Positions 19,609 through 63,866 of a stretch of 64,000 nt of DNA are shown here, piece after piece. A program made the position numbers and the translations under genes. The stretch lies in the NCBI GenBank assembly GCA_012295275.1, contig CM022665.1:12896001-12960000 (forward strand). Direction: 5' to 3'. Position 1 is the stretch's first letter. Every line of letters starts with the position of its first letter. The notes below the pieces were generated by a model. It was given only the letters and a program-made list of their open reading frames with translations, was not told the DNA's origin and ran no database searches. This DNA is from Chrysomallon squamiferum. Taxonomy: Eukaryota; Animalia; Mollusca.

Positions 19609-28425
<8,817 letters not shown>

Positions 28426-28695
28426 TATTATCACCTATGTCGTCTGCTTATCACTTTGATGCGTAATTAATTTCCGAACAGGTTAATGTGACATTGTAGA
28501 TATCTGTGTTTGAAGACAGATCAGCCATTGTGCGTCTTGAAGTGTAATACATTATATCCGATAACTTTCTGCCATTTACGATATCAGCATCAAAAATGTC
28601 GATTGTCTGGAATGAGCAAATACAGAAAATTGATTGTTTGACAATTGTTACATCAAAACAGAGCATAAAATTTTAAATTATATCATGTATGTATA

Positions 28696-43082: not shown

Positions 43083-44151
43083 TTATTTCATCAGCGTGGC
43101 AAAAACACAGCCCATCAAAGAAACACATCCCATAGACAGCATGGTGGCATCAGATTTTGTCTGAAACAAGTAAGTAAGTAAGTAGGTAAATGTGTATGTA
43201 TGCATGCATGTATGTATATATGTATGTATTTATGCATGTATGAATGTATGTGAAATTATAATATTAGATAAAAACAACAATGAGAATAATCATAATAACA
43301 AAACAAACAAATAAACAAATACATTTAAAATAAAATAAAATAAATAATAACAACAACAAATACATAAGAACAAAAAAAAAAAAAAAAATCATAATAATAA
43401 TATAAACAAAATAAAATAAAATAAAATAAATACGTAAGTAAGTAAGTAAGTAAACAAAACTGATTTAATAGAAAAAATCGGTCTTACTGTGGTTTCCAGA
43501 CATGTTGTTGCTGTTTGTCGTCGAACGCGTTTTAATGGTGCTACAGTGACTGGTACTAGTGTTCCAATGGTTTCTTCTCGTGTCCCAGCGGTTGTTGTGA
43601 TACATGGGTCCTTTGCTTTACTGTCCCCTTTTGATGACGCATATATACGTATATATACACATATATATACACACACACAAACACACATACGCACATAATC
43701 ACAGCCATCCAAACACATATAACCACCTCACACACCCATACGTCAACACGGAAACGCAAAGACAGTTAAGAATCTCAACAATAATTATATTTAGAAATCA
43801 AAAACAAATTTTCTCTCATCTTTTTTACAGATCATTTCTATCATTCGTAGACGTATACAAAATTTAAAATTTTACAAGGACTTTATAATGACCCTGTATT
43901 TATAATGCAATCCATGAAATCACTTACATAAAAGAATATCACAATAATTCAGATTAAGAAATGGAAAATGTATTATAATATATAAAAAGGCTATTTAAAC
44001 GTTTTTTGATAGTTGACTTCATTTGATAATGAGTTTAATAACGCGAATAAGTCACTTGAAAATCTAAATAGTAATAAAAATACCAGTAAAACATACTTAT
44101 TAGTAGAGCGAACCAGAAGAAAAGAAGACTTCCAAAAATACACAGCTTCAT
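43083..44151 (-). CDS. Small predicted GPI-anchored/secreted peptide precursor, cluster gene 1 (about 90 aa)
   Basis: Exons 44097-44151, 43488-43627 (AAG acceptor inferred) and 43083-43160 give MKLCIFGSLLFFWFALLI-RDSKAKDPCITTTAGTREETIGTLVPVTVAPLKRVRRQTATTCLETT-TKSDATMLSMGCVSLMGCVFATLMK*. Non-coding exon 1 ends at 44921. Confidence 0.65.
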
Positions 44152-44519
44152 TTTGAAAATCAGCAAAGAAGATAATCTGCGATAATGATCATTAAGAATA
44201 TTGAAACTTGAAAAATGAAAATCTGATGTCGTCCAAAAAAAAAAAAAAAATTCGAACAACTTTTTCTATACGTTTGAATGTCTGCTATATTTTGATTAGT
44301 CACCAGTCTTTGATAATAATGAAGTAACTTGAATTAGAGAATGTATACAGAATTATATATCTTATTTCTTCGTAATGTCATTATATATTTATATTACAAA
44401 TTCCTCAGGATACATGTTTGTAATAATTTAGCCTGTAAATTAGGTGGCTTTATTATTATTATTTTTAATCACTTTACATTTGCATCTACTCTCACTGTTA
44501 TATTAAATAAAAAGTAAAC

Positions 44520-44890
44520 AAAACTAAACTCAACCAATTTAAACTAAAACTAAAACTAACACTAAAACTAAACTTAACTTAACTAAACTAAATTAAATTA
44601 AACTAAATTAAACTAAATTAAATTAATCTAAACTAAACCAAACCAATCTAAAACTAAAACTAAAACTAAAACTAAAACTAAAACTAAACTTAACTAAACT
44701 AAACTAAATTAAACTAAATTAAATTAATCTAAACTAAAATAAAATAAACTTTATCAAAGCAAGCTAAATAATATTAAACTAAACTAAAACTAAGCTAAGC
44801 TAAACTAAACTAAAACTTGGCTAAGCTAAACTAAACTAAATTACACTACATTAAACTAAGCTAAACTAAATTAAACTAAACTAAACTAAA
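44520..44890. repeat. (AAACT)n/(AAAACT)n satellite, duplicated at about 49320-49580
   Basis: Read directly from the sequence; lies in intron 1 of both duplicated genes. Confidence 0.9.
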
Positions 44891-46108
44891 ATATATTTTT
44901 AATGTGATATCGTTACTTACCTGAATCCGTTTTAACTTTCACTAACTGCTATCCATTTCACATTGCTTATTAATACACATCCGTTATTTACTTTTCTACT
45001 TATCTAACATAACTGTTTCATATTAAACTTACACTAAAGAAATAGTTAAATATATTTTCCATTTTACCTGAATTTGGTGTAAACACTTTAACAAAAAGCA
45101 TTTGAACGTCCTCAAATAGTATTTCATAAATATGTATTTAAAGTTTTTATTATCTACCACAGTGATTAAGAAAGGCGACATCTCGCTGCCATCCCGTTCT
45201 TCAGAATCAATAGAAGTCCATTAAGTAATTTTTGTTCTTAATCTGAGTGTTTTATAACAATTGCTTTATACGTGCGTTGCCAACCTAGGGCACGATATTT
45301 TATCATCATCAAACGAAATTCACGCGGAACACATTTTAATATTACTGAGCTGTCCGTTTATTCGTCACAGTGGAATCTTTTGTCCATCTATGGCCTAGTT
45401 AAATTAGCGACAATTCTTTGTCAATGTAGGTAAATATGTTAGAGCACTAACTTTGTTAATTAATAATCACATCTTTTGAACTTAGCACGTATGTCGCTAC
45501 CCAGTAAACAGTTAATATTAAGAGTACAAAACGAGAGTTTGTTTGTTTGAAGATTCCTCATGAATTTTAAATATTGATCATTAATAATTTTTTGTATAAT
45601 ATCACTGTGAGACATAAACCTCTAAGAGATCGTTTTACTTATTAACATCAAGTGAACAGTTAACAGGAAATACAAACAAACAGAAAAGTACGCAGTATGA
45701 CCTTTGATATTCCAGTTCTTGGACAGTGTCTGAAAGAACATGTACTAATAACTGCATGCTGAAGAGTCGATCTATTGAACTACTGCTCTTCAGGCAGGTA
45801 CCAACGTACTCACAGCTGTTATCAGATTTTATAATAAGTGAAGAGATTTTGTTCTTAAAACTGGTTCAATGTTCTTCAAGCTTTAAAATTTATTTTGTGA
45901 AAAATAGATTTGCTTGATAGAATATTAAAAAAAACCCCAAAACTGACAACCCCCCCAAAAAAAAAACCACACAAATAAACAACCAGTCCCCCACAAAAAA
46001 GAAAAAGTTAGGATTAAAACAAAAAAGAAGAAGTTAGGATTAAAACAAAAATATCCATAATCCTTACTTTCCTTATTACATTGTACTTGTTTACAGTTCA
46101 AATTTTAA

Positions 46109-46153
<45 letters not shown>

Positions 46154-46882
46154 CAGATAGACTGATAGATAGAAAGATAGATAGATAGATCATTAGAGAG
46201 AAAATGACTGGACAGATGGAGACAGATACACGTAGACAACCAAAACGAAAGAAAGAAAGAGATAAAAAAGTAAACAACAATCAAGAAAAGAAGTATATTT
46301 TATTTGAAATTGTAACAGACAAATGCTAAAATACAAATAACAGTATCACTTTATTAATACTTTCTTAATTCTGTTCTAAAAAACAATATTTTGCAAATAA
46401 AAAGTTATGCCAATAAATTCAGAAACGATATAAAGTTCTTTACTAAATGTATTTTGTCATAGTGTTTATATCCGTTTCTGTTTTCAAAAAATTCTCTTTT
46501 GTTTCTTCTTAATCTGGCGGTTTTCATGAAGACATTAAGACATGAGAATCTTAGCAATCAAAATTTAAAAAGAAATTCTCATTAGTAATAAGTATATCAA
46601 GCACGATACACAGACAAATTTAACAGACATACATATATATTTATAACATCCACATCATCAAGAGCATTCAGGTCCTCTTTTTCAGTTTCAATCAGTGGAT
46701 GCTACAAGAATTCGGATTAGTGTCAGAATATCCAACATTCCGATTATACATTGAAGAAAAATACATCTAAATAAATAATTAAGGACTCCTCTACATTGTT
46801 ATATAACTGTCTTATTAATACGGTAGAGGTAAAAGGCTTAGATGTAAACTGCTGGTAATGTGGAAAATTCCTAGGAAATGTT

Positions 46883-48152
46883 TTATTTCATCAGCGTGGC
46901 AAAAACACAGCCCATCAAAGAAACATATCCCATAGACAGCATGGTGGCACCAAATTTTGGCTGAAACAAGAAAGTAAGTAAGTAAGTATGTATATATGTA
47001 TGCATACATGCATGTATATATGTTTGTATGTATGTATGCATGTATGTATCTATGTATGTATGTGTGTATGTGTGTATGTATGTATTATTAGGAAAAAAGG
47101 AAGAAACTCAATGATCATAAATTTAATGAGCATAATGATAATAAAACAAACAAACAAACAAAATAATAAATAAATAAACAAAAATAAAATTAAAGTAACA
47201 GCAACAAGACTGAGTTCAACAACAACAATGACGACAGTAATAATATAACTGACGATAATATTTAATTACTGCATTTCCACAGATTTAAATATGAAATTAT
47301 GATGAATTACACTGAATGAAGCAACAGCAGCAACAAAATAATCAAACAAAAAGCAAATAAAATAAATAAATAAATAAAAACAAAAAGAGAAATAATGAAA
47401 AAAGAAGACGAAGAAAGAATAAGAGACCACTGTGCATTTATTTATATATTTTCTAATGAAGAGTAGCAGTTTCTGTGTCAGCTAGTACCCTCGACGTGTT
47501 TATCAAAAGTGTTGGTCTAATTTACAAGAGAGACCATTTGAAGTGGCAGCTACAGCTTTTATATCTTATACGATCATAACAAACACAACCACACAGACAT
47601 ACACATAAAACAAAACAACAACAAGAGAAAAACAACAACAAATAGAGTAAAAACAACAATAAAAAACATCATACCTGTAAATATTAAAATGTTAGATTAA
47701 TTTACATATGTTAAAACATTTATTTATTTATTCTAAACGCTCATAGTTTTGCATTATACTGAATTATGCAAGAATTACAAGAACTAATTTAAAAGGAAAA
47801 AAAAAATAATAATAATAATAATAATGAAAACAAACAAAAAAATAAACTAAACATTAAAATTAAAATTAAATAGATACAAATAAAACCTATCTTACTATGA
47901 TTTCCAGACATGTTGTTGCTGTTTCTTGCTGTTTGTCTGGTGGTGCAGTCGTATCTCTTGGTTGTGCAGTCGTATCTCTTAGTGGTGCAGTCGTGTCTGA
48001 TGGTGGTTCAGTCGTGTCTGTTTGTGGTTCAGTAGAATATTCTTGTGCTGTAGTTATTTGTTCTGATGCTGCAGATATACATACATACATATATATAGAT
48101 ATACATACACATACATACATACATACACATACATACATTGTATACAGAATAA

Positions 48153-48185
<33 letters not shown>

Positions 48186-48944
48186 CACTTACCTATACAC
48201 ACAGTCAAACATGCACAAAATTCTCCACACCATTTATATATATATAATACACACACACACACACACACACATGCCTGTGTATCTAAGCTTATATACGCAT
48301 AAAAAAACTGGATTCAACATTATCAAAATAATGCATCAGTGGGTTTGTTCTTTGTGTTACATAATACTAAACTCTGTGCCTTTAATAAAAATGATATACA
48401 GCAATCATGAAACACTTATTAAGTATGTACTACAAGGTCGTTATAAAGTCCTTGCGTAATACTGAATTTTATAATTCTAATCAATACAACGTTATTAAGG
48501 ATACAAATCATAATTCGATTCTGAAGTTCTAGAAATACATTTTGCAGCTGATTTTCTGTTATACCATAATGATGGCCATGTGGAAAATTAAGAATCTCAA
48601 TAAATATATTTAAAATACTTTACAGAACAGAATTATTCAAATTTAAAATTGTACAAGGACTTTATGATGATTCTCTGTTTATAATATGGTTCATAAAATC
48701 ACTTACAAAAAGGAATTTTACAGCAATTCAGATTACAAAATAATAAAAAAAAGAAATTACAATATATAAAAAATCTAATTAAAATCTTTTTTTTTTTTTT
48801 GACAATTAACTTCATTTGATAATGAGTTTAGACTCGCAAATAAGACACTTGAAAATCTAGATAGTAATAAAAATACCAGTAAAACATACTTATTAGTAGA
48901 GCGAACCAGAAGAAAAGAAGACTTCCAAAAATACACAGCTTCAT
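46883..48944 (-). CDS. Small predicted GPI-anchored mucin-like peptide precursor, cluster gene 2 (101 aa)
   Basis: Exons 48890-48944, 47896-48068 and 46883-46960 with canonical splice sites give MKLCIFGSLLFFWFALLI-TSEQITTAQEYSTEPQTDTTEPPSDTTAPLRDTTAQPRDTTAPPDKQQETATTCLEII-PKFGATMLSMGYVSLMGCVFATLMK*. Non-coding exon 1 ends at 49612. Confidence 0.8.
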
Positions 48945-51400
48945 TTTGAAAATCAGCAAAGAAGATAATCTGCGATAAAGATCATTAAGAATATTGAAAC
49001 TTGAAAAATTAAAACCTGATGTCCAAAAAAAAAAAAATTCGAACAACGTTTTCTATACGTTTAAATGTCTGTTATATTTTGATTAGTCACCAGTTTTTGA
49101 TAATAATGAAGTAACTTGAATTAGAGAATGTATACAGAATTATATTTCTTATTTCTTCGTAATGTCATTATATATTTATATTACAAATTCCTCAGGATAC
49201 ATGTTTGTAATAATTTAGCCTGTAAATTAGGTGGCTTTATTATTATTATTTTTATTATTATTTTTTATCACTTTACATTTGCATCTACTCTCACTGTTAT
49301 TTTAAATAAAAAGTAAACAAAACTAAACCAAACAAATCTAAATCTAAATCTAAAACTAAAACTAAAACTAAAACTAAAACTAAAACTAAAACTAAACTTA
49401 ACTAAACTAAACTAAATTAAACTAAATTAAACTAAATTAAATTAATCTAAACTAAAATAAAATAAACTTTATCAAAGCAAGCTAAATAATATTAAACTAA
49501 CTAAAACTTGGCTAAGCTAAACTAAACTAAATTACACTACATTAAACTAAGCTAAACTAAACTAAACTAAACTAAACTAAAATATAATTTTAATGTGATA
49601 TCGTTACTTACCTGAATCCGTTTTAACTTTCACTAACTGCTATCCATTTCACATCGCTTATTAATACACATCCGTTATTTACTTTTCTATTTATCTAACA
49701 TAATTGTTTCATATTAAACTTACACTAAAGAAATAGTTAAATATATTTTTCATATTTTGTCATCATCAAACGAAATTCACGCGGAACACATTTTAATATT
49801 ACTGAGCTGTCCGTTTATTCGTCACAGTGGAATCTTTTGTCCATCTATGGCCTAGTTAAATTAGCGACAATTCTTTGTCAATGTAGGTAAATATGTAAAC
49901 TAACTTTGTTAATTAATAATCACATCTTTTGAACTTAGCACGTATGTCGCTACCCAGTAAACAGTTAATATTATGAGTACAAAACGAGAGTTTGTTTGTT
50001 TGAAGATTGCTCATGAATTTTAAATATTGATCATTAATAATTTTTTGTATAATGTCACTGTGAGACATAAACCTCTAAGAGATCGTTTTACTTATTAACA
50101 TCAAATGAACAGTTAACAGGAAATACAAACAAACAGAAAAGTACGCAATATGACCTTTGATATTCCAGTTCTTGGACAGTGTCTGAAAGAACATGTACTA
50201 ATAACTGCATGCTGAAGAGTCGATCTATTGAACTATTGCTCTTCAGGCAGGTACCAACGTACTCACAGCTGTTATCAGATTTTATAATAAGTGAACATTT
50301 TTGTTAAAAATGACAGAAATGTTAAAACTGGTTCAGTGTCCTCCCAGAAAAAGCGACACATTAAAAAACAAGAACAATAATAATAAAAAAGATAAATAGA
50401 TAAAAAAAAATAAAAAAAATAATAATAATAAATAATTAAAAAAATAAAGCCCAAAACAAAGAAAAACCTAGACAACTAACAAACCAACAAAAAACAACAC
50501 ATTAACAACAAAATCTAGAAATAAACAACGAAAACAAATAAACAACAACGTGGCCTGCTGTAAATGATTAGCAGCAAAAGGAATATTTTACGTGCAGCTC
50601 TACTAGTCACAGTCTTTAATACAGGAGTATTAGTTGTAACGGGAAATATCTCAGTGAAAAGCTTGATCTTGCAGTCAGCCATACTTCAGCTGTACCACTG
50701 AGTTAATGATTCATTTTAATGTCCGCACCTTCTTCTTCGTGCTGTTTATTAAACACATATAAAAAATAAAAAAATAAAATAAAATAAAATAAAATTAAAT
50801 TAAATTAAATTAAATTAAATAAATAAAAATAAATAAAATAAATAAATACATTTTTTTTTTTTTTTAAATTAAAAATTTAAAAATAAATTCTTGATTATTC
50901 ACTGCGAGATTTTGTGAAACACACAAACGAAAGTGACAATTCAGTTTGTTGTTGTCTGGTTTTTTTTTTTCTCTAATCTAGAATGCTCATTCACTGATTC
51001 AGTTAGAGCAAAAAAACGCGTGCGCTCAACTGAAATCAATGGTTTCTCATGTCGTTCTCGTAGTACGCGCCCGGTTAGGATACAGCATAAAAACAAAAAC
51101 CTCGATTCTAGCCATTAACTGTTTGATGTCTGATGTTTTTGCAGTTATATTTTTCATCGCAACGATGTCGGTATTTTTCAAACGGTAACCGTACACATAA
51201 ACGAATTCATTCAGTGGATATCGTTTCTATCGGAATAGTTACGGCCATGTAATACTATTCTTTATGCACTGTCTTCAAATAACATAGTATGAGTTGTCGC
51301 CCTTCCTTCAACATAATTTTAACTAGATGTACAAGATAATTTTAACTAGTGGCTTTATCATGCCTGTTAGAAAATGAAAGTAGTCCAAAAAAACAACAAC

Positions 51401-51439
<39 letters not shown>

Positions 51440-53285
51440 ACAAAAAACAACAACAAACAACCCCCCCAAAAAACCAAAACAACAAAAAACAACAGCAAAA
51501 CAACCAAGTTTGATCCTGCCGGTCATGTTCTCTGAAAACAAAAATCTCACTATAATTACGTTGCAGTCAATCGGCTGTAACAGCTGTGTATATGTTCATA
51601 TACACGTATATCTGTATGTCATTATGTATGTCTGTATTTGTGCGTGCGTGCATGAATTTATGCATGTATGCATAACGTATGTACGTGTATATGTAAATAT
51701 GTATACGTGTATGTGTGTGTGTGTGTGGTACGTGCGTGCGTATATATGTATCTATTTTTGTGTGCGCATGTGTATATGTGTGTGTTAATGTATCTGTATA
51801 TGCATGTTAATGCATACGTATTTGTAAATCTTATTAAAATCCTTTGCTTTAATTTTTGATATCATAATGCAAAATAAATAAATAAATATATAAACAAACA
51901 AACAAACAAACAAAAAAAATAAAAAATAAATAAATAAATATTTGTTTAACGAGCTCCCAACCTATTTTAATATTAAGTTATAAACATATTACAGTGAAGG
52001 CTTACTCCCATTTGGTCGTAGTCTTAGCATGTTGTTACCTCAGTCATTATAATGAACATTTTCAGATTAGTTTGCAAGCAATTATTATTGCCTTTAAATA
52101 ATTAAACAAGAATGTATCTATCTAAAAATGTTTATTATTAAATAACGTAAGATAAGATACTGCTTTACTGTCCATAAGAAAATTATTTTTGCATCATAGA
52201 TTCAGCACTCACACCAAAAATACAACGAAAAAAACAACAAAAAAAACGATGCTTGACAATGTGAAGAACGAAGAGAACTAATACTGAATAAAACAGACAT
52301 TAATAAGAAAATATTATAAAAAAAATATACTGTGCATCAAACGTTAACAGTTACATAAAAAGGAAACACTAATTGGAATACACGATGACAGTGACTCATA
52401 TTATGGATATAAAAAGTTGTCTGAGTTTTTCTAAAGCAAAACATTTTTCAGCAGTTTAAAACATTCATTAATTCAAATCACAGCTGCTTCAGAAAGTGAA
52501 CACTGATGTCCACTTCATTAATTACACAGGTAATAAAGTAATGTTAACGTAAGTTTATTTCAAACAACTGGCATTTCGACCAGTTGGGAATTCGACCACA
52601 TGGGACGAGACGAATGTGAAAGTAGCCATTTTGTGTGTGTCAAAATAACAGTCACTACAATACCAACGACAGCAACAAAAACAACGCAGACAACAACGAT
52701 AGTAATGTTAACAGCAGTAGCAGTAGTTGTAGCTATAATAATCATAAAAGGAAGAAGTAAAAAGAAAAAGAACATTTGACGCCAATAAAAATAATGACAA
52801 TAACGATTAAAAAACAAAATAAAACCACAACAACAACAAACCCCCCTAAACCAACAACAAACAAACAAGAAAATGTAATGTTTAAAATATTTTATTGACC
52901 TACATAGCAGTTGTATTGTAGGTTGTGAAATTATCAAACTTGTGCAAAGCACCAGTTTTCACGTACACAACTCACAGTAAGAAAAAAGTAAGAACAAATG
53001 CAACCTCTGAGAAAAAAAACGAAAAAACAAAAACGAAAAAAAAAAACCCAAAATATAAGAAAAAAAACGAACCCCCAACCAAAAAGAAAAAAAAATACCA
53101 AAAAAAACAAAAAAAAAAAAACTTTTGAAAAGAACAAAAACAAAAGAACAAAACAAAAACAGAACATCATCAGACATTTAGAATGAAAAATTAAAAAAAT
53201 AGAATTTATAAATTAAGAAAAAGCCAAACAACCATAACCACCAGCCCTCTGCATATTGTAATGAAAAAAAAAAAAAAAAAAAAAA

Positions 53286-53323
<38 letters not shown>

Positions 53324-53466
53324 CAACAATAAAAATCAGAAATAAAAATTAAAAAATAATAATAATTAGGTTCATTTCTAAAGAGTATTTGTAAAAAATT
53401 ACAGTCACATTATATGAACTCCGTGAAAGCAGCAAACTATAATGAAGTTCGTGTTCTTCATTTTTT

Positions 53467-53953
53467 TTATTTCACAAAGTTAGCGACAGCGCTCGCAAAC
53501 ATACACATGACGACAGAAGCCGTGAGCACAGTGAAACCAGATTTAGTCTGAAACAAAAAGAACTGCATATTAAATCCAGAGTTAATTGTTAATTATACTT
53601 TTTGGGGACGATTCTAGTCTGCATACTTCCAAGTTATGTTTTATTTCTTTTTTTTTTTTTAATTAATTACCAAGCATAACATCTTAATTGTACTCTTTTT
53701 TGACTAATTATGTTTTACCAGTCTGTTTCAGTCTTAATTAATACCGAAGTATAACAACTATTAATTTTTAATTAAACTTCTTTATTTTTTTCTTCTTTTT
53801 TTTTTTTTTTTTGTGAAAATTTTCTGAATACTTATATAAGCTATATTTTTTTTTTTTTTTTTTTTTTATCAACTATCTCAATCTTAATTAATAACGAAGT
53901 ATAACAATAGCATCTGGGTGCTGCTACAATTATTTATTTATTTATTATTATTA

Positions 53954-54005
<52 letters not shown>

Positions 54006-54462
54006 GGCGACGTTCAAATGTTTTATAACAGTTTTATTTTGCTGTCATACTTAATCATGTACAATGGCATGCCACCGAAAACAATAAAAAAAACAACAAC
54101 TTATGAACATGAAACACTTTTATTAAACCATTTACTCCTAAAGTCTGAGATACCCTTTAACATAGGTTTATTTTATCTTCTTTGTCATCGTCATTTAATT
54201 AATTAGTTTTTTTTTTTTTTTTTTTTGTTTCTTTGTTTATTACATACTAAGTGTGTAAAAGGAAAATGCTCACCGATGAATCTGTCGCTGCGGTTGTATC
54301 GCTGGCTGCTTCCGTACTGTTGTCTGTTTGCGTAGCTGTGACTTTGAAAAAATCAAAGACAAATTAAAGAATATATAGTTAAAAACCCAAAAGAACAACA
54401 AAAACAGAAAAAATAGCAAAAAAGCAAACAAACAAAACACAACAGCAACAAAAGAAAGAAAG

Positions 54463-54493
<31 letters not shown>

Positions 54494-55170
54494 GTTGATG
54501 TGTGAGTTTAAGAGAAAAATAATATTTAACAATTTTTAATTTACGATCTTGCAGTCCGTCATATGCTCAAGGACTAAGGGATCTTTTTTATACACCTTCC
54601 TTTAAACGAGATAATAAATACGATGGCATACTTACTGGGAAAATAACGCAGATATGTTGTTGTTGTTTTTTGGATAAGAATATGCGCTTCATGATAATAG
54701 TAATAAAAATAATAATATATTTACCCGTTTAGGAGATTTTTACCCGTTTGTAAGTCGTAAGTATATGAAAGTACGAAGAAAGTAAGTAAGCAACTACTAT
54801 TCATAACAAGTAAATGAATAACTAATCAACTTAGGAAATATTTCCATATATTGATTTATTTCTTAGTTAAGTCATATCACCCATGTTATTACAACAACAA
54901 CAACAACCTCTACTGCTACTACTACTACTAATAATAATGATAAGTAAATAATTAAATAAGTTAGTAAATAAGTTAAGTTAAATTAAATTAAACAGAATTA
55001 AAAAAGGTAATAATAATAAATAAATAAATAAATTTAAAAAATTAAAAAATTAAATAAAATAAAATAAATTAATAAGGGAAAAAATCCTTTCGTGCGTTAT
55101 AAAAATGTGTCTGCTTACCTACAACAAACATCAAAGAGAGCAACAACACAGAAAAGTATACAAACTTCAT
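53467..55170 (-). CDS. Tiny predicted GPI-anchored glycopeptide precursor, cluster gene 3 (66 aa)
   Basis: Exons 55119-55170, 54274-54341 and 53467-53547 give MKFVYFSVLLLSLMFVV-VTATQTDNSTEAASDTTAATDSS-TKSGFTVLTASVVMCMFASAVANFVK*. Intron phases (1 then 0) match genes 1-2. Non-coding exon 1 ends at 55541. Confidence 0.8.
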
Positions 55171-55608
55171 TTCTTACACGGTATATCTGAAAAAAAATAA
55201 CGAAACTTATCTTTAAATATTCATTTTGTTATACAACAGCATTTATAAAGCGTGAAAACATTATAATTTCTTCTAATAGTACATTTAAAAAAAAAATAAA
55301 ACTCCTGTAATATAATAGTAAATAAATTATTGAAGAATGCTTTAAAATATGAATAAATTATTATGTTACTTAAAAAGGTTTAAAACGTGAATAAATATTT
55401 GCTAAAATAAATAAATGAAAAAAAAAAAATTAGTGCAAAAATTCTTGAAAATAAGAATAAGAATAAATTACTATCAAGACCTATATAAAATATAGCATTT
55501 CCTTACAGTAATATTAGAATAAATAATTTAATCTGTGTACCTGAAAATGTTCAACGTTCTTGTTCAGAAAGATGTTACGTATGTGCTGCAGACCCAAGTC
55601 ATGTCGGA

Positions 55609-55614
55609 TTTATA
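55609..55614 (-). promoter_or_regulatory. TATA box of cluster gene 3
   Basis: Minus-strand TATAAA about 70 nt upstream of the exon-1 donor at 55541. Confidence 0.55.
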
Positions 55615-57116
55615 AATGTGTTAATAATCTTTGAATTGGTCGTCACTACAACAAACATACCTTTCTGAGTTACATCTTCCTTAGAAACGACAAATCTTCA
55701 AATTAATCATAGAAATATGAACTGGCGAATTGTGTCTTGTAAACAGAAATACACATTGGCTTACCTAATCATTGTGTACAATACACTTATGTTGAGACGT
55801 ATACAAGATGGGCGGTTTCTGGTCTACCGATGCAAAGAATTAATTCAGTTTTTTAATGTTTTCTGCACCACAGTGATCGTACATCACATATTTCTGAAAC
55901 TTTAGATGCGTCATTTCTTATTTAGTATACGGGAACATTCAATTTGTTCAAAAAAAAAAAAAAAAAAGGACCTGACTGGCACCAACGTACTTTAATACAA
56001 CGCGTGATACGTTCGTAGATAAACAGTATAAAATTACCTACTTGAGAGAAAAAGAACTAATGCGTTTTTCTCAGGGTTCACGTTCTGAATTTTAACTGTA
56101 TGGGAAAAAATGTATTTCTGTTATGTCTAGCACGTACAGCTAGCCATAACAGAAATGAATGTAGATTTTAGATTACTGCGAAATTTTCTGTCAACCCCCC
56201 CCCCGACCCCACAACAAACAGCAAAAACAAGCCACTAATGCAATAAATAAACTGATACGCTGATTATTTCGTTAGGTTTTCGTGGGTTAACATTATCATC
56301 AGAATTTAAATGCATCTTTCTTATTATAACAGAATAATCATCGGTTTTCCTTTTAGGTCTTTGACTGGAACGGGGAAAAAGGCCTAATGAGCTTAGGAGG
56401 AGGAACGATTTTGCAGCTTTTCACATCCTATACGGTGAATGTTCTTACTATTATAATATGCCTTAAAAAAAAAAAAAAAAGAATAAAAAGAAAACGAAAA
56501 AAAAACAGAGCAAAATTTGAAATCTCGTTTTGGAATTCGTACAGACAGAATAATTATATTTGCTTTATTTTAATTATGCAACCACCCTTTGCTGAAACAT
56601 TACAGTTCTGCCATTTTTCTTTTTACTGTTGTAGTCTCACAGATTACCAACAGAAATTTCTCGAGGTGTTAACAGAATGTTTTTTAAATATATATTTTTC
56701 GACGAAATGTGCTTTAAATTAAGAGTATGCTTCAATATTTAAACTGTGCTGCTTCTTTGTTTTAAGCTGTCTTTGAAAAAAGAAAAAAAAAGAAGAAATG
56801 GAAGATGAAAACACGTTTTATATATACATAAATACATATTTATTACACAAACACACACATACATAGGCTATACGTACACAAAATACGTTTATTAAAATAT
56901 AAACATTCGTTGACTTTATTCATCTATTTTACGGAGCTTACTGACAAATCATTAATTTACTCTATCATTATAAACCTTGCTCCTGCTATATAAATCATTT
57001 TGTAGAATTATCAAAATTCTGAAGTGTATAAAACGTTCTAAATCTGTCCATTTTTATATATATATATATATATATTTTATTTTTTTCTCTTGGAAAATCT
57101 ATGTCACATCAGCACT

Positions 57117-58361
57117 TTACAAGATGATTTTGAAAATTCCCGCGTAGATCAACAGAACCAGAAGATAATACGAGTGTACAGGACTGTTCCCGCCATTAGA
57201 TTTGGTTGTCGTAGCAACGTAGCCACAAGCGGCCCATGTATCATCGATAGCAGAATTATTGTTTTCACTATAAATAGAAATTACAACTGTAGCAGTAAAG
57301 ATATACTGTTAATATACATGCACTAAAAATCAAACATTGTTATAAATTCAATTTGAAACATAACTGGAAATAATAATAATAATTATTATTATTATGTTAC
57401 AAAATATCTGAAGGTCGACATTTTACCCCCTTCACAAATGACGTTGTGGTGTCGTCTGGTACAAGGCGGAGTGACAACTGCATTATTTCTAACATTACTA
57501 GAATACGCTTCAGAGAACATCGATAGATGCGATGAAGTCATAATTAAGGAAAAATGGCGGCGCTCAGACATTTTAATCTATACTCTTTCGTTTTTTACAC
57601 TCAGTATTAATCAATACTGCATACTTAATATTAAATAAAATAAAACTTAACTTGAAAAGATACTGAATACATTTCGACTATTTCTAACGTACACTTTAAG
57701 GTGTGTGCATTTGATACTGAGGTACAACAAATTTTCTTTATATGAAGACTTAAGTTACTCTGCTCCTAATAATTAAAACTGTTATATACTTACTTGCATA
57801 TTTTCGTTTTGGCTTCACAATCATTGGCAGCGATGACACCATCTGTGAAACAGAATCGGTTTGTGTCTCCGCTGACTATACAAGTAGCTGGGTCGAATGT
57901 ATTGCAGTCAACTGTCAAACTCTGACATGTTCCTGATTTAATTTTAAAATATTAGGTTTTTTTCTACCGATTAAAAAGCACTATTATATGATATCACAGC
58001 TATTTAATTGTAGTGCATAGTAATGGAAAGACAGCAGGATGCTCCTAGTTTAATATAGAAATAATTAGTTAATTTCAGAGCAGACTGAAATTTGTTTAAC
58101 TTCTTACAAAATAAAGAAAGAAAAGTGAGAGATGAAACTGAAAGACAACTTTGACACTGAGAAAAATAAAAATAAAATAAATCAAACCGAAAATAGTTCA
58201 TTGAGAGAAAGAGAAAAAAAAAAAAACTTACTGAAAGACAAATTGATACTGAGAAAAAAAAGAAAAAAAGAAAAAAAAAGGAAACATTAAAAACTGTCTT
58301 TGTCTTTGTTTTTTTACATACCTGACAAAATCAGGAGGAAAAACAGAACTGCAATATTCAT
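57117..58361 (-). CDS. Small Cys-containing predicted GPI-anchored peptide precursor, cluster gene 4 (79 aa)
   Basis: Exons 58322-58361, 57794-57842 and 57117-57267 (phases 1 and 2) give MNIAVLFFLLILS-DGVIAANDCEAKTKIC-NENNNSAIDDTWAACGYVATTTKSNGGNSPVHSYYLLVLLIYAGIFKIIL*. Candidate 5'UTR exons: 59086-59111 and one ending at 59409. Confidence 0.75.
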
Positions 58362-59537
58362 GTTTCTTCTAGTCTGCGTTATACTTCATAAATGTTAACA
58401 TTTATATAATCGTTACTTTTATAACAACAGTGTCATTAAACACGGACTTTTTCAGTACTAAAACAAAGGAAGGCTCTTGAAGCCAAAACCATGTTTTTAT
58501 TTCAAGTCAATGTCCACAGTTTTATCTAAAATGCAAATCTTCATTGCTTTTCAAGCACCAGGCTTTCGTTTCTAAGTAGTTTTTTTTTTTTTTACAATAT
58601 CAGCATACATTTCAGTGTGTGAATTAAAAATTAAGAGATTATTGTTATCGTCGAATCTTTGTAAGTATCATATTTTAGATAAAATCATTTTAGTGATCTC
58701 TCTCTCTCTGGTTATAGGATATTGTTTGTGTATGTGGGTATGGGTATATGTATCTGTATTTGTAAAAGAGACAAGGACAAAAATAAGGAAGTTTATATAA
58801 AAATCATTTTGCCATGCATACACATGTACGTATGCACATAATGAGAATTAATGAATGAATATAATATTTATTTAATAATACATTAACACATTTTGTTTAT
58901 TAATAATACACAGACGCATATACATGCACTCACACACATATACACACATATACTCCCATGTTTGAATTTGCAAAAATGATTTATCAGACAACAGGAAAGA
59001 ACGATCTCACCACAGACAGGAAAACATATACCGCAATATTTAATAAGTATCTTGTTATGTATGTTTGTACACTGTATTCACCTACCTCTGCATGTTTCTC
59101 AGCACATTAACCTGAACACAATATCCTTTAACTAAATTAATTTTGCTTTATTTATGCACTTGGTGCATTATTTGCACATATTAATGCATTAGATATTTCG
59201 ATAATTATAATTCGCCACAACATATGCAGCTGCACAGGGTATGATTATATATTATTATTTCACTTGTTGTCTGACTGTTCCTTTAGATATGTACTCACAG
59301 CTAATATAATTAACTCAGGTGTTACGAGACCGCTGCTGTGTATGTTCATAATTAGATACATATTTTTGTGTGCAGGGTAAAGCATTAAGTCCCAAGGTAC
59401 AGCCATACCTGTAATATATGCCAGGTACAAGAGAAACCGCACCCAGTACTGAGTGAGTGAGTGAAAAAATTAACGTGCTAATCAGAACAAGCTGATGCGA
59501 AGCACGTATGCGACGGCACCCATTGTCACCGTATCTC

Positions 59538-59544
59538 TTTTATA
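59538..59544 (-). promoter_or_regulatory. Candidate TATA box for cluster gene 4
   Basis: Minus-strand TATAAAA upstream of the CAG|gtatgg donor at 59409. A second TATATAAA lies at 58401-58408. Confidence 0.45.
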
Positions 59545-59654
59545 CCAACCCGATGTAAACAGTAGGGTGATAAGAATTATACTGGGCTACCGATTCATTC
59601 AAATTGTATATGTGTATGTATATTTGTGTATGTTTGTATCAATGTATGTATATA

Positions 59655-59795
59655 CAGTGGTACCTAGAGTTACGAGTGCTCCAAGTTACAAGTTTTCCGA
59701 ATTACGAGCAGCCGCCCGGTCGATTTTTTACTTTGAGCTGCGAGCCAAAATCCGTGTTACGAGCTAGATATCGATGCGCCGCCAGTTGGCGCAGC
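59655..59795 (+). mobile_element. Left end of a Tigger/pogo element
   Basis: TA followed by CAGTGGTACCTAGAGTTACGAG, an imperfect inverted match to CTCGTAAGTCAAGGCACCACTG-TA ending at 63148. Homologous to the end of the 5548-6199 copy. Confidence 0.85.
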
Positions 59796-59819
59796 CATCC
59801 ACATCCACATCCACATCTA

Positions 59820-60792
59820 CATGGCGTAATTTCAAATTCAGAAGGTTCACGTGTTCTTAGTACAAAAATTTAACGAACATGGCAAAGGTATATAGATGAC
59901 AATGCTAAAGATGCAGCATTTTATAATAAAGTTAATTTAGAAGAATGCGTAGACGAAGGCTTTCATTATTTGCATTATCAGTATATTGCTGCATCTGTTA
60001 CGCCAATACAGTGGCAAGAAGCTGTCATTAATGCACAAACTTTTCGACCTGTTGAAATGGGGTTTGAAAAATTTGATTGTACTATGACAAAAGAAGATAT
60101 TCAAACTCATCAGGGTATTCCTTTTTCACGCGCAGAATTCGTTCGACAACCGAAAATATTATACACCATTGATAATAATCATGAATGGACTCATCATCTA
60201 ATACGTAAAAAGGCTAATGGTGATGATAAAAGTCGATTTACCGTTAGTAATAATTTCAAAAATCAATGGGCTGTTTCAAAAGTAAATGCAACATTGCCTC
60301 GATGTGAGTTTTATTACCTCCATATTTCAGTAATGTTAATTGTGGTCAAGAACAAGTTCAGTATGACACACAAATAAATGTCAAGAACATTGGTATATGT
60401 TGTCTCATTTTAGTTCAGGTTTGAATACATTCGTTCAATCTACCGTCAGAGATATACAAACTTTATATGATGGTAAACCATTTGGTGGTACTGAAGCATT
60501 ATTAGAATCTGATACAAATATTGAAATGTTAACTGCGACTGCATTTTTGTTGAGACTTTGTCCTATTTTTGGCACGGACGAACCTATTTCCCAATCCACC
60601 TGCTTATTTGTCATATGTTTTTCAACTTTTGAATTCATTAAGAGATCACCTTCATATTTGTCTCTTGATTTCAGAAGTTTGCCAAAAGGTCCATCGAAAC
60701 CAGCACAAGTGATAAGACGGCCTAAGTTTTCACATCATAAGAAAACAAAGAAAATTAGATATGAAACTCGTACAATATACAGACAACCTTAA
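59820..60792 (+). pseudogene. Endogenous parvoviral element: decayed capsid (VP) gene
   Basis: Reading through a TAA at 59871-59873 gives SEGSRVLSTKI*RTW...EGFHYLHYQYIAASVTPIQWQEAVINAQTFRPVEMGFEKFDCTMTKEDIQTHQG...ILYTIDNNHE. This is colinear with the parvovirus jelly-roll core (AAV: GDRVITTSTRTW...[51 protein letters not shown]...VQVFTDSEYQ). After frameshift(s) near 60315-60395, LLESDTNIEMLTAT and AFLLRLCPIFG...CLFVICFSTFEF resemble later VP strands. Intronless. Confidence 0.7.
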
Positions 60793-62434
60793 AAAAAAAA
60801 AAAACTGCTCATTAACCGAGGTTAATTATCGCTTCCCACGAAGCACGCCGATCTTTGTCTGTCGTCATTTCTGCGGGCATCTGTTTTTTGAGGGAAAACT
60901 AGCATTGGCAAGTATGTATTTTTTAAGGATTTTTATATGTACGCCTATATGTGTGTATGTGTATATGTATGTATGTATTGATATGTGTGGATAGCAGTCA
61001 CCCGGTCGATGTATACATATGTATGTATGTATATATTTATGTGTGTGTATACACACACACTCACACACACATAAACACACACTAGAAGATTTTATGGATG
61101 TCTGACAATAGTTCATAACAAAATTATACCTTGAAACGTGACACTGACAGGTAAGATGAAGATAATAAAGTATTAGGAATCTGAAATGCTCGTCTCAGTT
61201 ATTCTGTTTAGTTTCTGTGTTTTGTCATCAGCAGCTTTTATTTATTTAATTGTTCTTCAGTCAGTGTTATCTGTTTTCTTTCTCAGTAATCAAATGAAGA
61301 AAGTCAGTAATGAATTCTTAGCCTGCTAATCAATGCAGACCACATATGATTATATATTTTATTTTAAATAAAAGCTGAAAAGAATGCTGTGTTTAAATAA
61401 TACCATGCTTCGTTCTGTTTCTTTAGTTATTTCTATTTCTATTCATTCTTTCTTTTTGTTCTTTCTTTACGTTGTTTCTGTATTTTCTTCCTTTCCTTTC
61501 TTCTTTCTTTTCTTTCTATCCTTCTTTCTTTTCTATCTTTCTATCATTCTTTCTTTTCTTTCTTGATTTTCTATCTTTTATTTCCTTTCTTTCTATTTTC
61601 CTTCCTTCTTCTTTTTTTTTTCGTATTTTGACTTCTTTATTATTTATTTATGATATTTTTTTAATCAGTTCATACAATCTGCTCTCACTGATTGTTTATT
61701 TAAGCTTTTGTAATCAAATTTCCTTGCTATCGACCTTCATCGCTCTGATTTTTTGTATTATTCTCATTTCTCTAACACCCTCGATTGAATATTGATCAAA
61801 GAGAAGTTTATCAAATTTTTGATGAAAACATCTTTCTGAAATCTTCAGCAAAATCATCGACCTTTGGTAAAAATCTTAGGTGAGTCAATCAATCAAAATA
61901 GATTCCCCGTATAGATATACTTATTATCAATTATTGTGCTTAATTTCAACACATTTTATGGTTGAGAGCGATGATTCTGTGATTGCAAAACATTGCATGC
62001 GCAATTTTTACGCAAAGCCCGAGATTCAGAGGATCCATAATGACAAAGCAGTCCAGGTCACGCGACATCAACGGCGCTTTCTGATTGGCTCAGACCGGTG
62101 TTGACAAACATTGGAGAACGGTAAATTTCAGCTAATTCAGTTCGATTAAATAACTAAAATTCATGAGTATTAGCAACTTGCTTAAAAATACAGTACAGGT
62201 TTAGAACTCTTCATTTTGATATATAATACATGTATAGTGGATTGAACCTATATGAGATATTCATTATTTATGATGCAAAATGACAGAAACGGATCACACT
62301 TTCTCAGCAGATTATCATTATGAAGGAAAAATATCCGCAACTTTTATTCCGATACATATTCGTAATTTTTTTCGCATCAGTATTATCAAAGACATCTTCA
62401 TATCATTCTAATATTAATGTTTTGCTCTTTCTAA

Positions 62435-63148
62435 TGATTTTTTGCTTTGAGCTGCGAGCCAAAATCCGAGTTACGAGCTAGATTCAGATACGCCGCCGCT
62501 AGTTGGCGCGGCGAACACAACATCCAGCTAGCATCTTACGTCTCACTTGTTTGCTTCACGTGGTTACCTCGCCGTGGAAGCATCTCTGTTGTGTTGTGCT
62601 CGCGTTTTATGCGTTATTTTGCCAAATTTCCATGCATCCTTAGAAAGTGAGTGCAAAGGACAGTACTGAGAAGAAGAAGCGGATGACGTCCATTGCATTA
62701 AAGTATGAAATCATAGAAAAACATGAGAGGTGTGCGTGTAGTCAAAGTGGCTAGGCAGTACGAGTGTAGTACTTTTATGATATGAACCGTACTGAAGCAG
62801 AAGGAGTCGACAAAGGCTGTATGTCCAGCCAAAGGCCTTAAAATAATTTCTGAGCTGAGGACATCTGTCCATGAAGAGATGGAGAAACCCTAACCCTGTA
62901 CACTTTACAATAGCAATTTATTTCTTTACATTCTCTTTTATTTTGTTTTTATGCAATATTTGTTATTTATACATACATTTTTCTTATTTAAAAACACTTT
63001 AAAAATAACTGGGGTGGCTTTGGGGGAAGGAACGGATTAATGGTATTTCAATTAATTTCATTTGGGAACACTGATTTGATATACGAGTTTATTTGAGTTA
63101 CGAGCTCTGTCACAGAACAAATTAAACTCGTAAGTCAAGGCACCACTG
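62435..63148 (+). mobile_element. Tigger/pogo non-autonomous element body and right end (lacks its own left TIR)
   Basis: Transposase N-terminal remnants KKKRMTSIALKYEIIEKHER and TVLKQKESTKAVCPAKGLKIISELRTSVHEEMEK. The right TIR ends CACCACTG followed by TA. Homologous to 5548-6199. Confidence 0.88.
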
Positions 63149-63268
63149 TATATATATGTATGTATACGTGTGTGTGTGTGTGTGTGTGTGAAGGTATGTA
63201 TGCATGTATACATGTATTAATGTTTTTTTGAAAGTGTGTTTGTGTCTATATATATATGTGTGTGTATG

Positions 63269-63304
<36 letters not shown>

Positions 63305-63700
63305 TGTACGTTTGTATGTATGTATGTATATGTGTGTGTGTGTCTGTGTGCATATATATATGCATGTATGTATGTGTGCACAAAGTATGTAAGTACGTAT
63401 GTATGCTTGACAAAGTAATTTTCGTATTCCACTTCTCTACACACACTGAAAGAACAAAAACATAAATATTTATATATTTCTTTATTATCACTTATATTTA
63501 CTAAGGAATACTGCAAGGTGGTTTCATCATGGGTTATACCAATCATTTATAACTTGCTCCGGATAAATAAACAACTTTTAAGACATTGTTTGAAAATTAC
63601 ATAAACTATTCGAGGTCCTTGAAATGTTCCTGGTGGCTTCTAACTTCAAACTCACTCGTCAATAACAATTCTAGTTACATTTTACACGAAGACAGATGTT

Positions 63701-63866
63701 CTAGTACGTGACAGTACTGTCCAGAACTAATTTCAAAACTGCAGCGAAAATCAGCAGAGGCAGAATTTGAACCAAGGATTCAGAGCTGTTCCCGCCATTA
63801 GATTCTGTCGTCGTGGCAACGGTACAAGCAGCCCAAGTGTCGTCAATAACTGAAGTATCACTTACA
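63701..63866 (-). CDS. Last exon of cluster gene 5 (paralog of gene 4); upstream exons lie beyond the window
   Basis: ttccag acceptor, phase 2 as in gene 4. VSDTSVIDDTWAACTVATTTESNGGNSSESLVQILPLLIFAAVLKLVLDSTVTY* shares IDDTWAAC and VATTTxSNGGNS with gene 4, followed by a hydrophobic tail. Confidence 0.8.

What the first reader, a model, noticed from the sequence alone, without database searches (positions are those of the whole stretch)
43083..63866. Hidden cluster of at least five spliced micro-genes for CD24/CD52-like GPI-anchored surface peptides
Seen: five same-strand genes whose coding exons (40-173 nt) the ORF track misses or shows only as fragments. The four complete ones encode a signal peptide on a phase-1 exon, a ~20-60-aa Thr/Ser/Asp-rich mature part, a small-residue motif (TKSD, PKFG, TKSG, TKSNG; TESNG in gene 5) and a terminal hydrophobic stretch with little or no cytoplasmic tail. 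There are two subfamilies: genes 1-3 (phases 1/0) and genes 4-5 (phase 2 before the last exon, IDDTWAAC motif). Established: this layout is that of GPI-anchored glycopeptides such as vertebrate CD24 and CD52. Inference: an undescribed invertebrate family of surface glyco-tags, possibly for mucus/epithelium, gamete or immune/symbiont recognition. No sequence homology to CD24/CD52 is claimed.
Basis: partly seen in the sequence, partly recalled or inferred. Interest (0 to 1): 0.85.

Follow-up and report, generated by a model that had tools for sequence, protein, structure and literature searches.

The report
Snail membrane-anchored Kazal and glycopeptide cluster
A likely snail genome carries five small spliced genes in a row for predicted lipid-anchored cell-surface proteins: three would be sugar-coated peptides laid out like human CD24/CD52, while the fourth, and probably the fifth, belongs to an unannotated snail family with a predicted Kazal (protease-inhibitor) fold that likely shields the cell surface from proteases.

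Summary
The cluster is real, but it holds two kinds of gene. A three-exon scan finds four complete minus-strand genes here and none elsewhere in the window; shuffles average 0.01-0.09. Gene 5 shows only its last exon. They have no RNA test or large-database search, and gene 1's acceptor is doubtful. One RNA contig shows a 139-nt middle exon, and the mature part is a six-cysteine domain. Its relatives are uncharacterised gastropod proteins (Gigantopelta, Lottia, Pomacea, Babylonia, Littorina) with a signal, 1-5 such domains and a hydrophobic tail. A model of a 52%-identical relative matches Kazal folds almost exclusively, though weakly (Z 5.4); Pfam misses the family. Gene 5's exon matches the same family. 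Best reading: GPI-tethered Kazal-fold proteins beside CD24/CD52-like glycopeptides. GPI anchoring and protease inhibition are inferred. The nearest relatives have Pro at P1 and gene 4's loop has a 2-residue insertion, so a non-inhibitory role is a close rival.

The parts
44097..44151 (-). Gene 1 signal-peptide coding part (55 nt, phase-1 donor); 5' UTR part of this exon runs to about 44221
   Evidence: 55/55 identical to gene 2's
43488..43627 (-). Gene 1 middle exon (Thr-rich, 2 Cys, one R-x-R-R furin-type motif); 5' boundary uncertain (weak AAG acceptor)
   Evidence: no RNA test
43083..43160 (-). Gene 1 last coding exon: TKSD, predicted omega site, hydrophobic tail, stop
48890..48944 (-). Gene 2 signal-peptide coding part (phase-1 donor)
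47896..48068 (-). Gene 2 middle exon, 173 nt, Pro/Thr/Asp-rich, with a coding 21-bp tandem repeat (4.6 copies, 47938-48033)
46883..46960 (-). Gene 2 last coding exon: PKFG, predicted omega site, hydrophobic tail
55119..55170 (-). Gene 3 signal-peptide coding part (acceptor at 55186, phase-1 donor)
54274..54341 (-). Gene 3 middle exon, 68 nt, 50% Ser/Thr, one N-S-T sequon, no Cys
53467..53547 (-). Gene 3 last coding exon: TKSG, hydrophobic tail
   Evidence: 69% DNA identity to gene 1's last exon
58322..58361 (-). Gene 4 signal exon coding part (40 nt, phase 1)
   Evidence: its last 13 nt match the RNA contig's end
57794..57932 (-). Gene 4 middle exon, 139 nt: end of signal peptide and Kazal-type Cys1-Cys5; phase-2 donor
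   Evidence: RNA contig covers all of it; family profile E 3.3e-10 on this exon alone
57117..57267 (-). Gene 4 last exon coding part: Cys6 (DDTWAAC), short Thr stalk, TKSNGG omega region, hydrophobic tail, TAA
63701..63866 (-). Gene 5 last exon only (Cys6, stalk, TESNGG, hydrophobic tail); upstream exons would lie beyond the window's right end
   Evidence: 27 of 48 codons give the same residue as gene 4's, dS 0.73 > dN 0.30; an 11-residue stretch is identical to Gigantopelta P0004
44920..44980 (-). Probable non-coding 5' exon end of gene 1 (CAG|GTAAGT); the paralogous donor for gene 2 is at 49611
   Evidence: inferred, start not known

Best explanation
Five same-strand spliced genes encode small precursors with a signal peptide and a hydrophobic tail that are predicted to be GPI-anchored: gene 4, and probably gene 5, carries one six-cysteine domain of predicted Kazal fold that likely acts as a surface-tethered serine-protease inhibitor, while genes 1-3 would display short O-glycosylated Thr/Ser peptides. 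Steps: (1) splicing: shown for gene 4 by one RNA contig, inferred for the others; (2) ER entry and signal cleavage after about residue 18-20: inferred from hydropathy; (3) gene 4 folds into a three-disulfide Kazal core with an extra C-terminal helix: fold predicted on a 52%-identical relative, disulfides inferred; (4) GPI transamidase cuts at a small residue 21-26 residues from the end (S83-G86 in gene 4) and adds the lipid: inferred from established GPI rules; (5) on the outer membrane leaflet the loop between Cys2 and Cys3 binds extracellular or microbial serine proteases in substrate-like fashion, and genes 1-3 add a glycan coat on the same surface: inferred, the weakest step. Genes 1 and 2 are an old tandem duplicate whose ends were probably homogenised by gene conversion, so the pair differs almost only in the exposed peptide.
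For: RNA joint 57267/57794 plus exon-1 letters; the DNA run covers most of the intron and shows no joint. phmmer with the exon-2 peptide: 4 of 9 hits share the Cys pattern, all gastropod; a profile search added 6 more. Signal + 1-5 domains + C-terminal hydrophobic stretch (KD13 2.1-2.7) in 8 of 10 relatives examined; the exceptions are one isoform and one fragment. Cys spacing 7-9-10-6-14 in gene 4 versus 7-7-10-6-14 in the two Gigantopelta proteins, with which it forms a clade (97/98, rough bootstrap). PDB sequence search: 9 of 10 hits are Kazal-type, E 0.18-1.4. AF2 model of P0004, pLDDT 83-87 over residues 21-70. Foldseek: 47 of 48 listed rows are Kazal/follistatin-type by title or recall. 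VIA: 25 of 26 rows likewise, top 1cho_I Z 5.4, rmsd 2.0 over 49 residues. Atlas: 10 of 10 structural neighbours are follistatin-type or Kazal-bearing clusters. Caenogastropod domains vary at P1 (M, L, K, R, H, Q, S) with Asp fixed after it in 18 of 19 domains, as expected of reactive loops (established Kazal knowledge). Conkazal-M1 inhibits subtilisin A (Ki 1.1 uM) with, by my count from the paper's Cys numbers, the same 9-residue Cys2-Cys3 loop as gene 4 (PMC13101452, sections 2.3-2.4). Gene 1 vs 2: signal 100%, upstream blocks 97-98%, last exon and 3' UTR 95%, middle exon 61%, its flanking introns 67-69%.
Against: No fold match is individually strong: Foldseek best E 0.29 and none at or below 0.001; VIA best Z 5.4, under the tool's Z 8 caution; Atlas TM 0.37-0.50. 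No relative reaches Pfam's Kazal cut-off (best 16.5 vs 21 bits). The fold was modelled on a relative; gene 4's own exon-2 model was poor (pLDDT 49). P1 is Pro in both Gigantopelta domains and 3 of 4 Lottia domains; Pro at P1 is a poor inhibitory residue (recalled). Gene 4's loop has a 2-residue insertion and the usual Tyr of the Kazal core motif is missing (motif recalled). RNA support is one 282-nt contig at depth 2.6 in 1 of 3 RNA runs. No GPI or signal predictor was available. Tails of genes 1-2 are only moderately hydrophobic (KD13 1.8-2.1). Genes 1-3 have no expression evidence and gene 1's acceptor is weak.
Confidence: 0.5

Rival explanations
1. Same anatomy, but the Kazal-fold domain of genes 4/5 is a non-inhibitory binding or recognition module (as Kazal/follistatin modules are in SPARC, agrin or follistatin), displayed on a GPI anchor for cell, gamete or microbe recognition.
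For: Pro at P1 in the nearest relatives and a 9-residue loop in gene 4. Follistatin/SPARC modules are among the fold hits. Schistosomin, a molluscan Kazal-fold protein with the same intron layout, has no settled inhibitor function (PMC13101452, Discussion passages).
Against: Caenogastropod relatives carry typical inhibitory P1 residues that vary between tandem domains. The best fold matches are canonical inhibitors.
Confidence: 0.35
2. One reading: all five genes are one family of unstructured CD24/CD52-like glyco-tags (gene 4 would use a short 49-nt middle exon).
For: A CAG acceptor at 57842 gives an in-frame short model. All genes share a T[KE]S[GDN]-type motif before the tail (gene 2 differs) and a phase-1 signal intron.
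Against: The RNA contig covers the whole 139-nt exon. The short form would leave 3 Cys. Relatives conserve the full six-Cys domain. Genes 1-3 and gene 4 show no significant protein similarity (blastp E 0.34 or worse), and their second-intron phases differ.
Confidence: 0.05
3. Genes 1-3 (or at least gene 1) are not functional surface-peptide genes but decaying duplicates or chance exon-like stretches; only genes 4/5 are real.
For: Gene 1 lost the paralogous acceptor. Gene 1 vs 2 middle exon has dN 0.68 vs dS 0.79, near neutral, and all 4 last-exon differences change residues. No RNA was laid on them.
Against: Frames are open and phase-compatible in all three. The gene 1/2 middle exons differ in length by 24 nt, in frame, despite 39% divergence. 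The three-exon pattern is absent from controls. Genes 1 and 3 share a last exon at 69% (unrelated pieces median 56%, 95th percentile 65%).
Confidence: 0.12
4. The C-terminal hydrophobic stretch is an uncleaved transmembrane anchor, or the proteins are shed and act in mucus or haemolymph.
For: Hydropathy cannot tell a GPI signal from a tail anchor. Pomacea isoforms X2/X3 lack the tail, so soluble forms probably exist in the family.
Against: There are almost no residues after the hydrophobic stretch, and small-residue omega candidates lie at the canonical distance in all five.
Confidence: 0.12

Closest known systems
Uncharacterised gastropod proteins XP_041353194 and XP_041368627 (Gigantopelta aegis), V3ZE50 (Lottia gigantea), LOC112566653 / A0A2T7P798 and LOC112566521 (Pomacea canaliculata), XP_076445591 (Babylonia areolata), XP_070189661 (Littorina saxatilis)
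   Same: Signal + six-Cys domain(s) + hydrophobic tail; 47-48% identity of gene 4 to the Gigantopelta pair over 66-88 residues. An intron read-through in P0014 points to an intron right after Cys5 in a Pomacea-identical sequence, as in gene 4 (phase inferred from the protein only).
   Different: Gene 4 has a 2-residue insertion in the Cys2-Cys3 loop. Relatives carry 1-5 domains. I found none of them described in print.
Kazal-type serine protease inhibitors (ovomucoid domain 3, SPINK, infestin, rhodniin; Pfam PF00050/PF07648)
   Same: Six Cys with C3-x10-C4-x6-C5, a D-G...C motif, and a predicted beta-hairpin + helix core.
   Different: Below Pfam cut-offs; extra C-terminal helix; GPI-type tail; loop of 9 residues in gene 4 or Pro at P1 in its nearest relatives; inhibition untested.
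Schistosomin / conkazal (MKAVA) and MKTAV molluscan Kazal-fold families (PMC13101452)
   Same: Phase-1 intron by the signal and phase-2 intron between the Cys equivalent to Kazal C5 and C6 (paper section 2.6, my mapping); extra C-terminal helix; schistosomin 9rt6 is fold hit rank 4, Z 4.0. MKTAV's Asp/Glu three residues after Cys2 matches Asp in 18 of 19 relative domains.
   Different: Schistosomin/conkazal have 8 Cys and Glu at P1. The paper has no mention of GPI.
CD24 and CD52 (vertebrate GPI-anchored glycopeptides; features recalled)
   Same: Gene 3 layout: signal, about 23-aa Ser/Thr-rich mature peptide with one N-glycan sequon, GPI-type tail. Genes 1-2 are longer versions.
   Different: No Pfam hit on any exon piece. 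Neighbours are CUB/Sushi and VWA genes, not CD52's neighbours as I recall them. Three coding exons. An analogy, not homology.
RECK (GPI-anchored protein with Kazal motifs; recalled)
   Same: Kazal motifs held at the cell surface by a GPI anchor to restrain proteolysis.
   Different: RECK is a large multidomain metalloproteinase regulator; these are about 110-aa precursors; no similarity appeared in any search.

Membership tests
Kazal-type domain (genes 4/5) | Six cysteines in Kazal-type spacing | tested here: met
   Gene 4 spacing 7-9-10-6-14; 18 of 19 distinct relative domains have x7 at C2-C3, x10 at C3-C4 and x6 at C4-C5. Gene 5: only Cys6 lies in the window.
Kazal-type domain (genes 4/5) | Kazal fold (beta-sheet + central helix) | tested here: met
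   On relative P0004, not on gene 4 itself: searches agree, each weakly (Z 5.4, rmsd 2.0, 49 residues; Foldseek E 0.29).
Kazal-type domain (genes 4/5) | Pfam PF00050/PF07648 at gathering threshold | tested here: not met
   Gene 4 exons give no hit (scanned in pieces). Whole relatives: best 16.5 vs 21 bits.
Kazal-type domain (genes 4/5) | Disulfides C1-C5, C2-C4, C3-C6 | not testable with these tools
   Model coordinates are not returned; inferred from alignment only.
Canonical Kazal inhibitor | Seven-residue reactive loop between Cys2 and Cys3 | tested here: not met
   Gene 4 has 9; met in its relatives. Conkazal-M1 inhibits with 9 by my count (PMC13101452).
Canonical Kazal inhibitor | Inhibits a serine protease | not testable with these tools
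   Needs an assay.
GPI-anchored protein (all five) | N-terminal signal peptide | tested here: met
   Hydropathy rule only: best 13-mer KD 2.35-2.92 in genes 1-4; SignalP not available; gene 5's signal lies outside the window.
GPI-anchored protein (all five) | Small-residue omega site about 20-30 aa from the end, then a hydrophobic tail without cytoplasmic domain | tested here: met
   Own rule: candidates in all five; tails KD13 1.8-2.6; gene 5 has a few polar residues after its tail. Such tails are common by chance.
GPI-anchored protein (all five) | Lipid anchor actually attached | not testable with these tools
   Needs PI-PLC or mass spectrometry.
CD24/CD52 family | Very short Ser/Thr-rich mature peptide without a folded domain | tested here: met
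   Gene 3 (23 aa, 52% S+T, no Cys); looser for genes 2 (59 aa, 29%) and 1 (48 aa, 31%).
CD24/CD52 family | The same feature for genes 4/5 | tested here: not met
   Gene 4 mature part: 67 aa, 19% S+T, 6 Cys.
CD24/CD52 family | Sequence homology | tested here: inconclusive
   No Pfam family at E up to 10 on middle and last exons scanned separately, 22-57 aa each; no large protein search was run for genes 1-3.
Schistosomin/conkazal | Eight cysteines and Glu at P1 | tested here: not met
   Six Cys; no Glu at P1 in gene 4 or in 19 relative domains.
Schistosomin/conkazal | Phase-1 intron at signal, phase-2 intron between Kazal C5 and C6 | tested here: met
   Gene 4 introns against PMC13101452 section 2.6 passages.
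MKTAV two-domain Kazal family | Sequence similarity to MKTAV precursors | not tested
   No such sequences in the seven readable supplements by name search; figures not held.

The most novel reading that the evidence does not exclude
Gastropods keep an overlooked family of GPI-tethered, Pfam-invisible Kazal proteins that is the endogenous stock of the cone-snail MKTAV venom family. In this lineage, tandem copies shed the Kazal domain and became CD24/CD52-like glycopeptides with conserved ends and fast-changing exposed parts. That would be an independent origin of the CD24/CD52 design caught in one locus, serving surface defence or microbe recognition.
Probability: 0.2. Interest if true: 0.75.

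Novelty: new variant of a known kind. Interest (0 to 1): 0.45.

Why it matters
It defines a gastropod family (at least five named genera) of small, probably GPI-anchored Kazal-fold proteins that Pfam misses and databases call uncharacterised. That gives direct candidates for surface protease control in snails and a possible link to the schistosomin/conkazal/MKTAV group. Genes 1-3 show a CD24/CD52-like design in an invertebrate, in exons too small for ORF-based annotation. If they derive from the Kazal genes, the locus would show how such glyco-tags can arise. Both components have known precedents in kind, and function is untested, so the interest is moderate.

Tried and rejected
No whole genome is held, so gene 5's upstream exons and further copies could not be sought. 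Word-index protein searches with gene 4 exon 2 and exon 3 (lengths 'longer') found nothing; phmmer over representatives did. Five of its nine hits (P0002, P0005, P0006, P0008, P0009) were dropped as noise: long repeat or surface proteins with unrelated or no confident Pfam domains; only P0005's sequence was read. P0014 was left out of the domain profile as an intron read-through, P0017 yielded no full domain, and P0007 was left out of the P1 count and tree as an isoform. Atlas feature search with exon 2 gave two bacterial leads under 0.9, rejected. Single-protein PDB search gave chance hits only. Single-sequence AF2 of exon 2 was unusable. RNA runs X1 and X3 laid nothing on 57085-57990; their small word shares were not traced and are no evidence for gene 3. 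No RNA was laid on genes 1-3 or 5. An exact 31-nt pattern of the gene 1/2 last exon found 0 metagenome records, and related-locus scans could not be run. Positive selection on the gene 1/2 middle exon was considered and not supported (dN 0.68 < dS 0.79; flanking introns about as diverged). A Val/Thr-rich open stretch at 52560-52958 was judged low-complexity; the three-exon scan did not pick it up. Rfam: 0 hits in 42000-64000. No complex prediction was run: a Kazal-protease pair would pass by likeness to solved structures. Literature searches with no relevant paper: (listings only). led to PMC13101452.

Full report
Setting. The window is AT-rich (20-37% GC), microsatellite-laden animal DNA with spliced neighbours (CUB + Sushi exon at 27094-28434; weak VWA hit at 40611-41060). 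No whole genome is held. The nearest relatives of gene 4 are from the snail Gigantopelta aegis, so the source is likely a gastropod; I did not determine the species.

Observation. Splice-site listing and exon models give four complete minus-strand genes and the last exon of a fifth. Gene 1: 44151-44097, 43627-43488, 43160-43083 (90 aa). Gene 2: 48944-48890, 48068-47896, 46960-46883 (101 aa). Gene 3: 55170-55119, 54341-54274, 53547-53467 (66 aa). Gene 4: 58361-58322, 57932-57794, 57267-57117 (109 aa). Gene 5: 63866-63701. All 8 introns are GT..AG, 327-935 nt, with phases 1/0 in genes 1-3 and 1/2 in gene 4. A scan for signal exon + hydrophilic middle exon + tail exon in compatible phase found 5 starts (4 genes plus one microsatellite false start) in this region, 0 on the + strand and 0 elsewhere on the - strand. 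Shuffles gave means of 0.01 and 0.09 over 100 runs each; thresholds were chosen knowing the genes. The tail exon alone is common by chance (25 hits over both strands).

RNA. Of four public runs holding part of the region, three are RNA. On 57085-57990, 1 of 3 RNA runs laid one 282-nt contig (depth 2.6). It covers 57138-57267 and 57794-57936, skips 526 nt with CT..AC ends, and ends in 9 loose letters found only at the end of gene 4's exon 1. The fourth run (type not on record, DNA-like) covers most of the intron and shows no joint. So gene 4's middle exon is the 139-nt one, not the in-frame 49-nt form that an internal CAG would give. RNA support for genes 1-3 and 5 remains open.

Gene 4 is not a bare glycopeptide. 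Its predicted mature part (residues 19-85) is 19% Ser+Thr and holds six cysteines spaced 7-9-10-6-14. phmmer with the exon-2 peptide over 1.84 billion representatives gave 9 hits. Four share the cysteine pattern and are gastropod: two Gigantopelta proteins (55% and 52%), Lottia V3ZE50 and Pomacea LOC112566653, one isoform of which UniRef names 'Kazal-like domain-containing protein'. The other five were dropped as noise. A profile search returned 9 proteins, 6 of them new: Pomacea, Babylonia, Littorina and three unnamed records. Of 10 relatives examined, 8 have signal + 1-5 domains + hydrophobic C-terminus. A domain profile built without gene 4 scores gene 4 at 6.8e-17. In six-frame translation of the window it finds only exon 2 significantly (3.3e-10 among 3358 pieces); the last exons of genes 4 and 5 score E 0.5. 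Gene 4 groups with the two Gigantopelta domains (97/98, bootstrap not settled). Gene 5's exon shares 27 of 48 residues with gene 4's (dS 0.73, dN 0.30) and an 11-residue stretch with P0004, so it is probably a paralog whose Cys1-5 exon lies off-window.

Fold. No relative passes Pfam's Kazal cut-off (best 16.5 of 21 bits). Four weak, partly dependent lines agree on Kazal. (1) 9 of 10 PDB sequence hits, E 0.18-1.4. (2) An AF2 model of P0004 (11-row alignment; pLDDT 83-87 over residues 21-70; two strands, a central helix and an extra helix at 70-75), whose Foldseek rows are Kazal/follistatin-type in 47 of 48 listed cases, best E 0.29. (3) VIA rows likewise in 25 of 26, top ovomucoid domain 3, Z 5.4, rmsd 2.0 over 49 residues, with schistosomin at rank 4. 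(4) 10 of 10 Atlas structural neighbours, TM 0.37-0.50. Family assignment of some PDB rows rests on my recall of the entries. Gene 4's own exon model was unusable.

Reactive loop. Across 19 distinct relative domains P1 (second residue after Cys2, by Kazal convention) is Pro 6, His 3, Ser/Lys/Leu/Arg 2 each, Gln 1 and Met 1; the next residue is Asp in 18. Gene 4 has two extra residues before that Asp. From PMC13101452 I saw the abstract, sections 2.3 and 2.4 whole, passages of 2.6 and the Discussion, the supplement list and one name search; figures and the large figure supplement were not seen. It reports that conkazal-M1 inhibits subtilisin A at Ki 1.1 uM; by my count its Cys2-Cys3 loop is also 9 residues. 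Schistosomins and conkazals have a phase-1 intron after the signal and a phase-2 intron between the cysteines that I map to Kazal C5 and C6, which is gene 4's layout. MKTAV domains have Asp/Glu three residues after Cys2, as here. These are leads to kinship; no sequence test was possible.

Genes 1-3. Gene 3 matches the CD24/CD52 layout as I recall it: about 23 mature residues, 52% Ser+Thr, one N-glycan sequon, no cysteine. Gene 2 has a 59-aa Pro/Thr/Asp-rich part with a coding 21-bp repeat. Gene 1 has 48 aa with two Cys and a furin-type motif. Genes 1 and 2 are tandem duplicates: signal 55/55, upstream blocks 97-98%, last exon and 3' UTR 95%, but middle exon 61% and its flanking introns 67-69%. 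That fits an old duplication with later homogenisation of both ends (inference); dN 0.68 vs dS 0.79 gives no sign of positive selection. Gene 1 has lost gene 2's CAG acceptor; an AAG 9 nt further in keeps the frame. Gene 3's last exon is 69% identical to gene 1's, so genes 1-3 are probably one subfamily. They show no significant similarity to gene 4 or its relatives; only adjacency, orientation, the phase-1 signal intron and a T[KE]S[GDN]-type motif link the two groups. Pfam gives nothing on their exons. They were not searched in the large protein collections, so absence of homologs is not claimed.

Mechanism and odds. Shown: gene structure, splicing of gene 4, the six-cysteine family. Predicted: Kazal fold (about 0.9) and GPI anchoring (about 0.85, from hydropathy and omega rules). 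Inferred: protease inhibition at the surface (whole reading 0.5) versus a non-inhibitory recognition module (0.35). Genes 1-3 being expressed glycopeptides: about 0.8 for genes 2-3, lower for gene 1.

Novelty. The Kazal fold, GPI-tethered Kazal motifs (RECK, recalled) and CD24/CD52-type peptides are all known kinds. I found no paper on this family or on GPI-anchored gastropod Kazal proteins in the held library (open-access texts only), and no earlier finding on it. Verdict: a new variant of a known kind, interest 0.45.

Noticed in passing
window:59655-63149: A 3.5-kb element with inverted ends (arms 59636-59677 / 63126-63167, 81% complementary) flanked by TA, with decayed transposase-like fragments near 62620-62900. 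It looks like a pogo/Tigger-type DNA transposon (label recalled), sits between genes 4 and 5, and has a shorter inverted relative at 5530-6204.
   Followed up: partly
window:59874-60792: Two overlapping + strand open frames (167 and 141 aa) inside that element, without Pfam hit; possibly captured foreign sequence.
   Followed up: partly
window:19609-28434: Minus-strand gene with a 446-aa CUB + Sushi exon and two very long exons (651 and 425 aa); the first starts with a transmembrane stretch followed by an acidic low-complexity tail with repeated Tyr motifs.
   Followed up: no
window:36737-41939: + strand multi-exon gene with an RG-rich start and a weak VWA hit (E 1.4e-5, under cut-off).
   Followed up: no
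window:29881-35095: + strand exons of an unassigned gene (coiled-coil-like start, Pro/Thr-rich middle); no Pfam hit on the two pieces tried.
   Followed up: no
window:43488-43627: Gene 1's middle exon has an R-x-R-R furin-type motif 16 residues before the predicted omega site, absent in gene 2; cleavage would leave a very short anchored peptide. May be chance.
   Followed up: no
P0007, P0010, P0011 (Pomacea LOC112566653): Isoform X1 ends in a hydrophobic tail while X2 and X3 do not, suggesting alternative anchored and secreted forms in this family.
   Followed up: no
window:57877: Run X4 differs at one position in gene 4's middle exon; by my reading a synonymous third-position change.
   Followed up: partly
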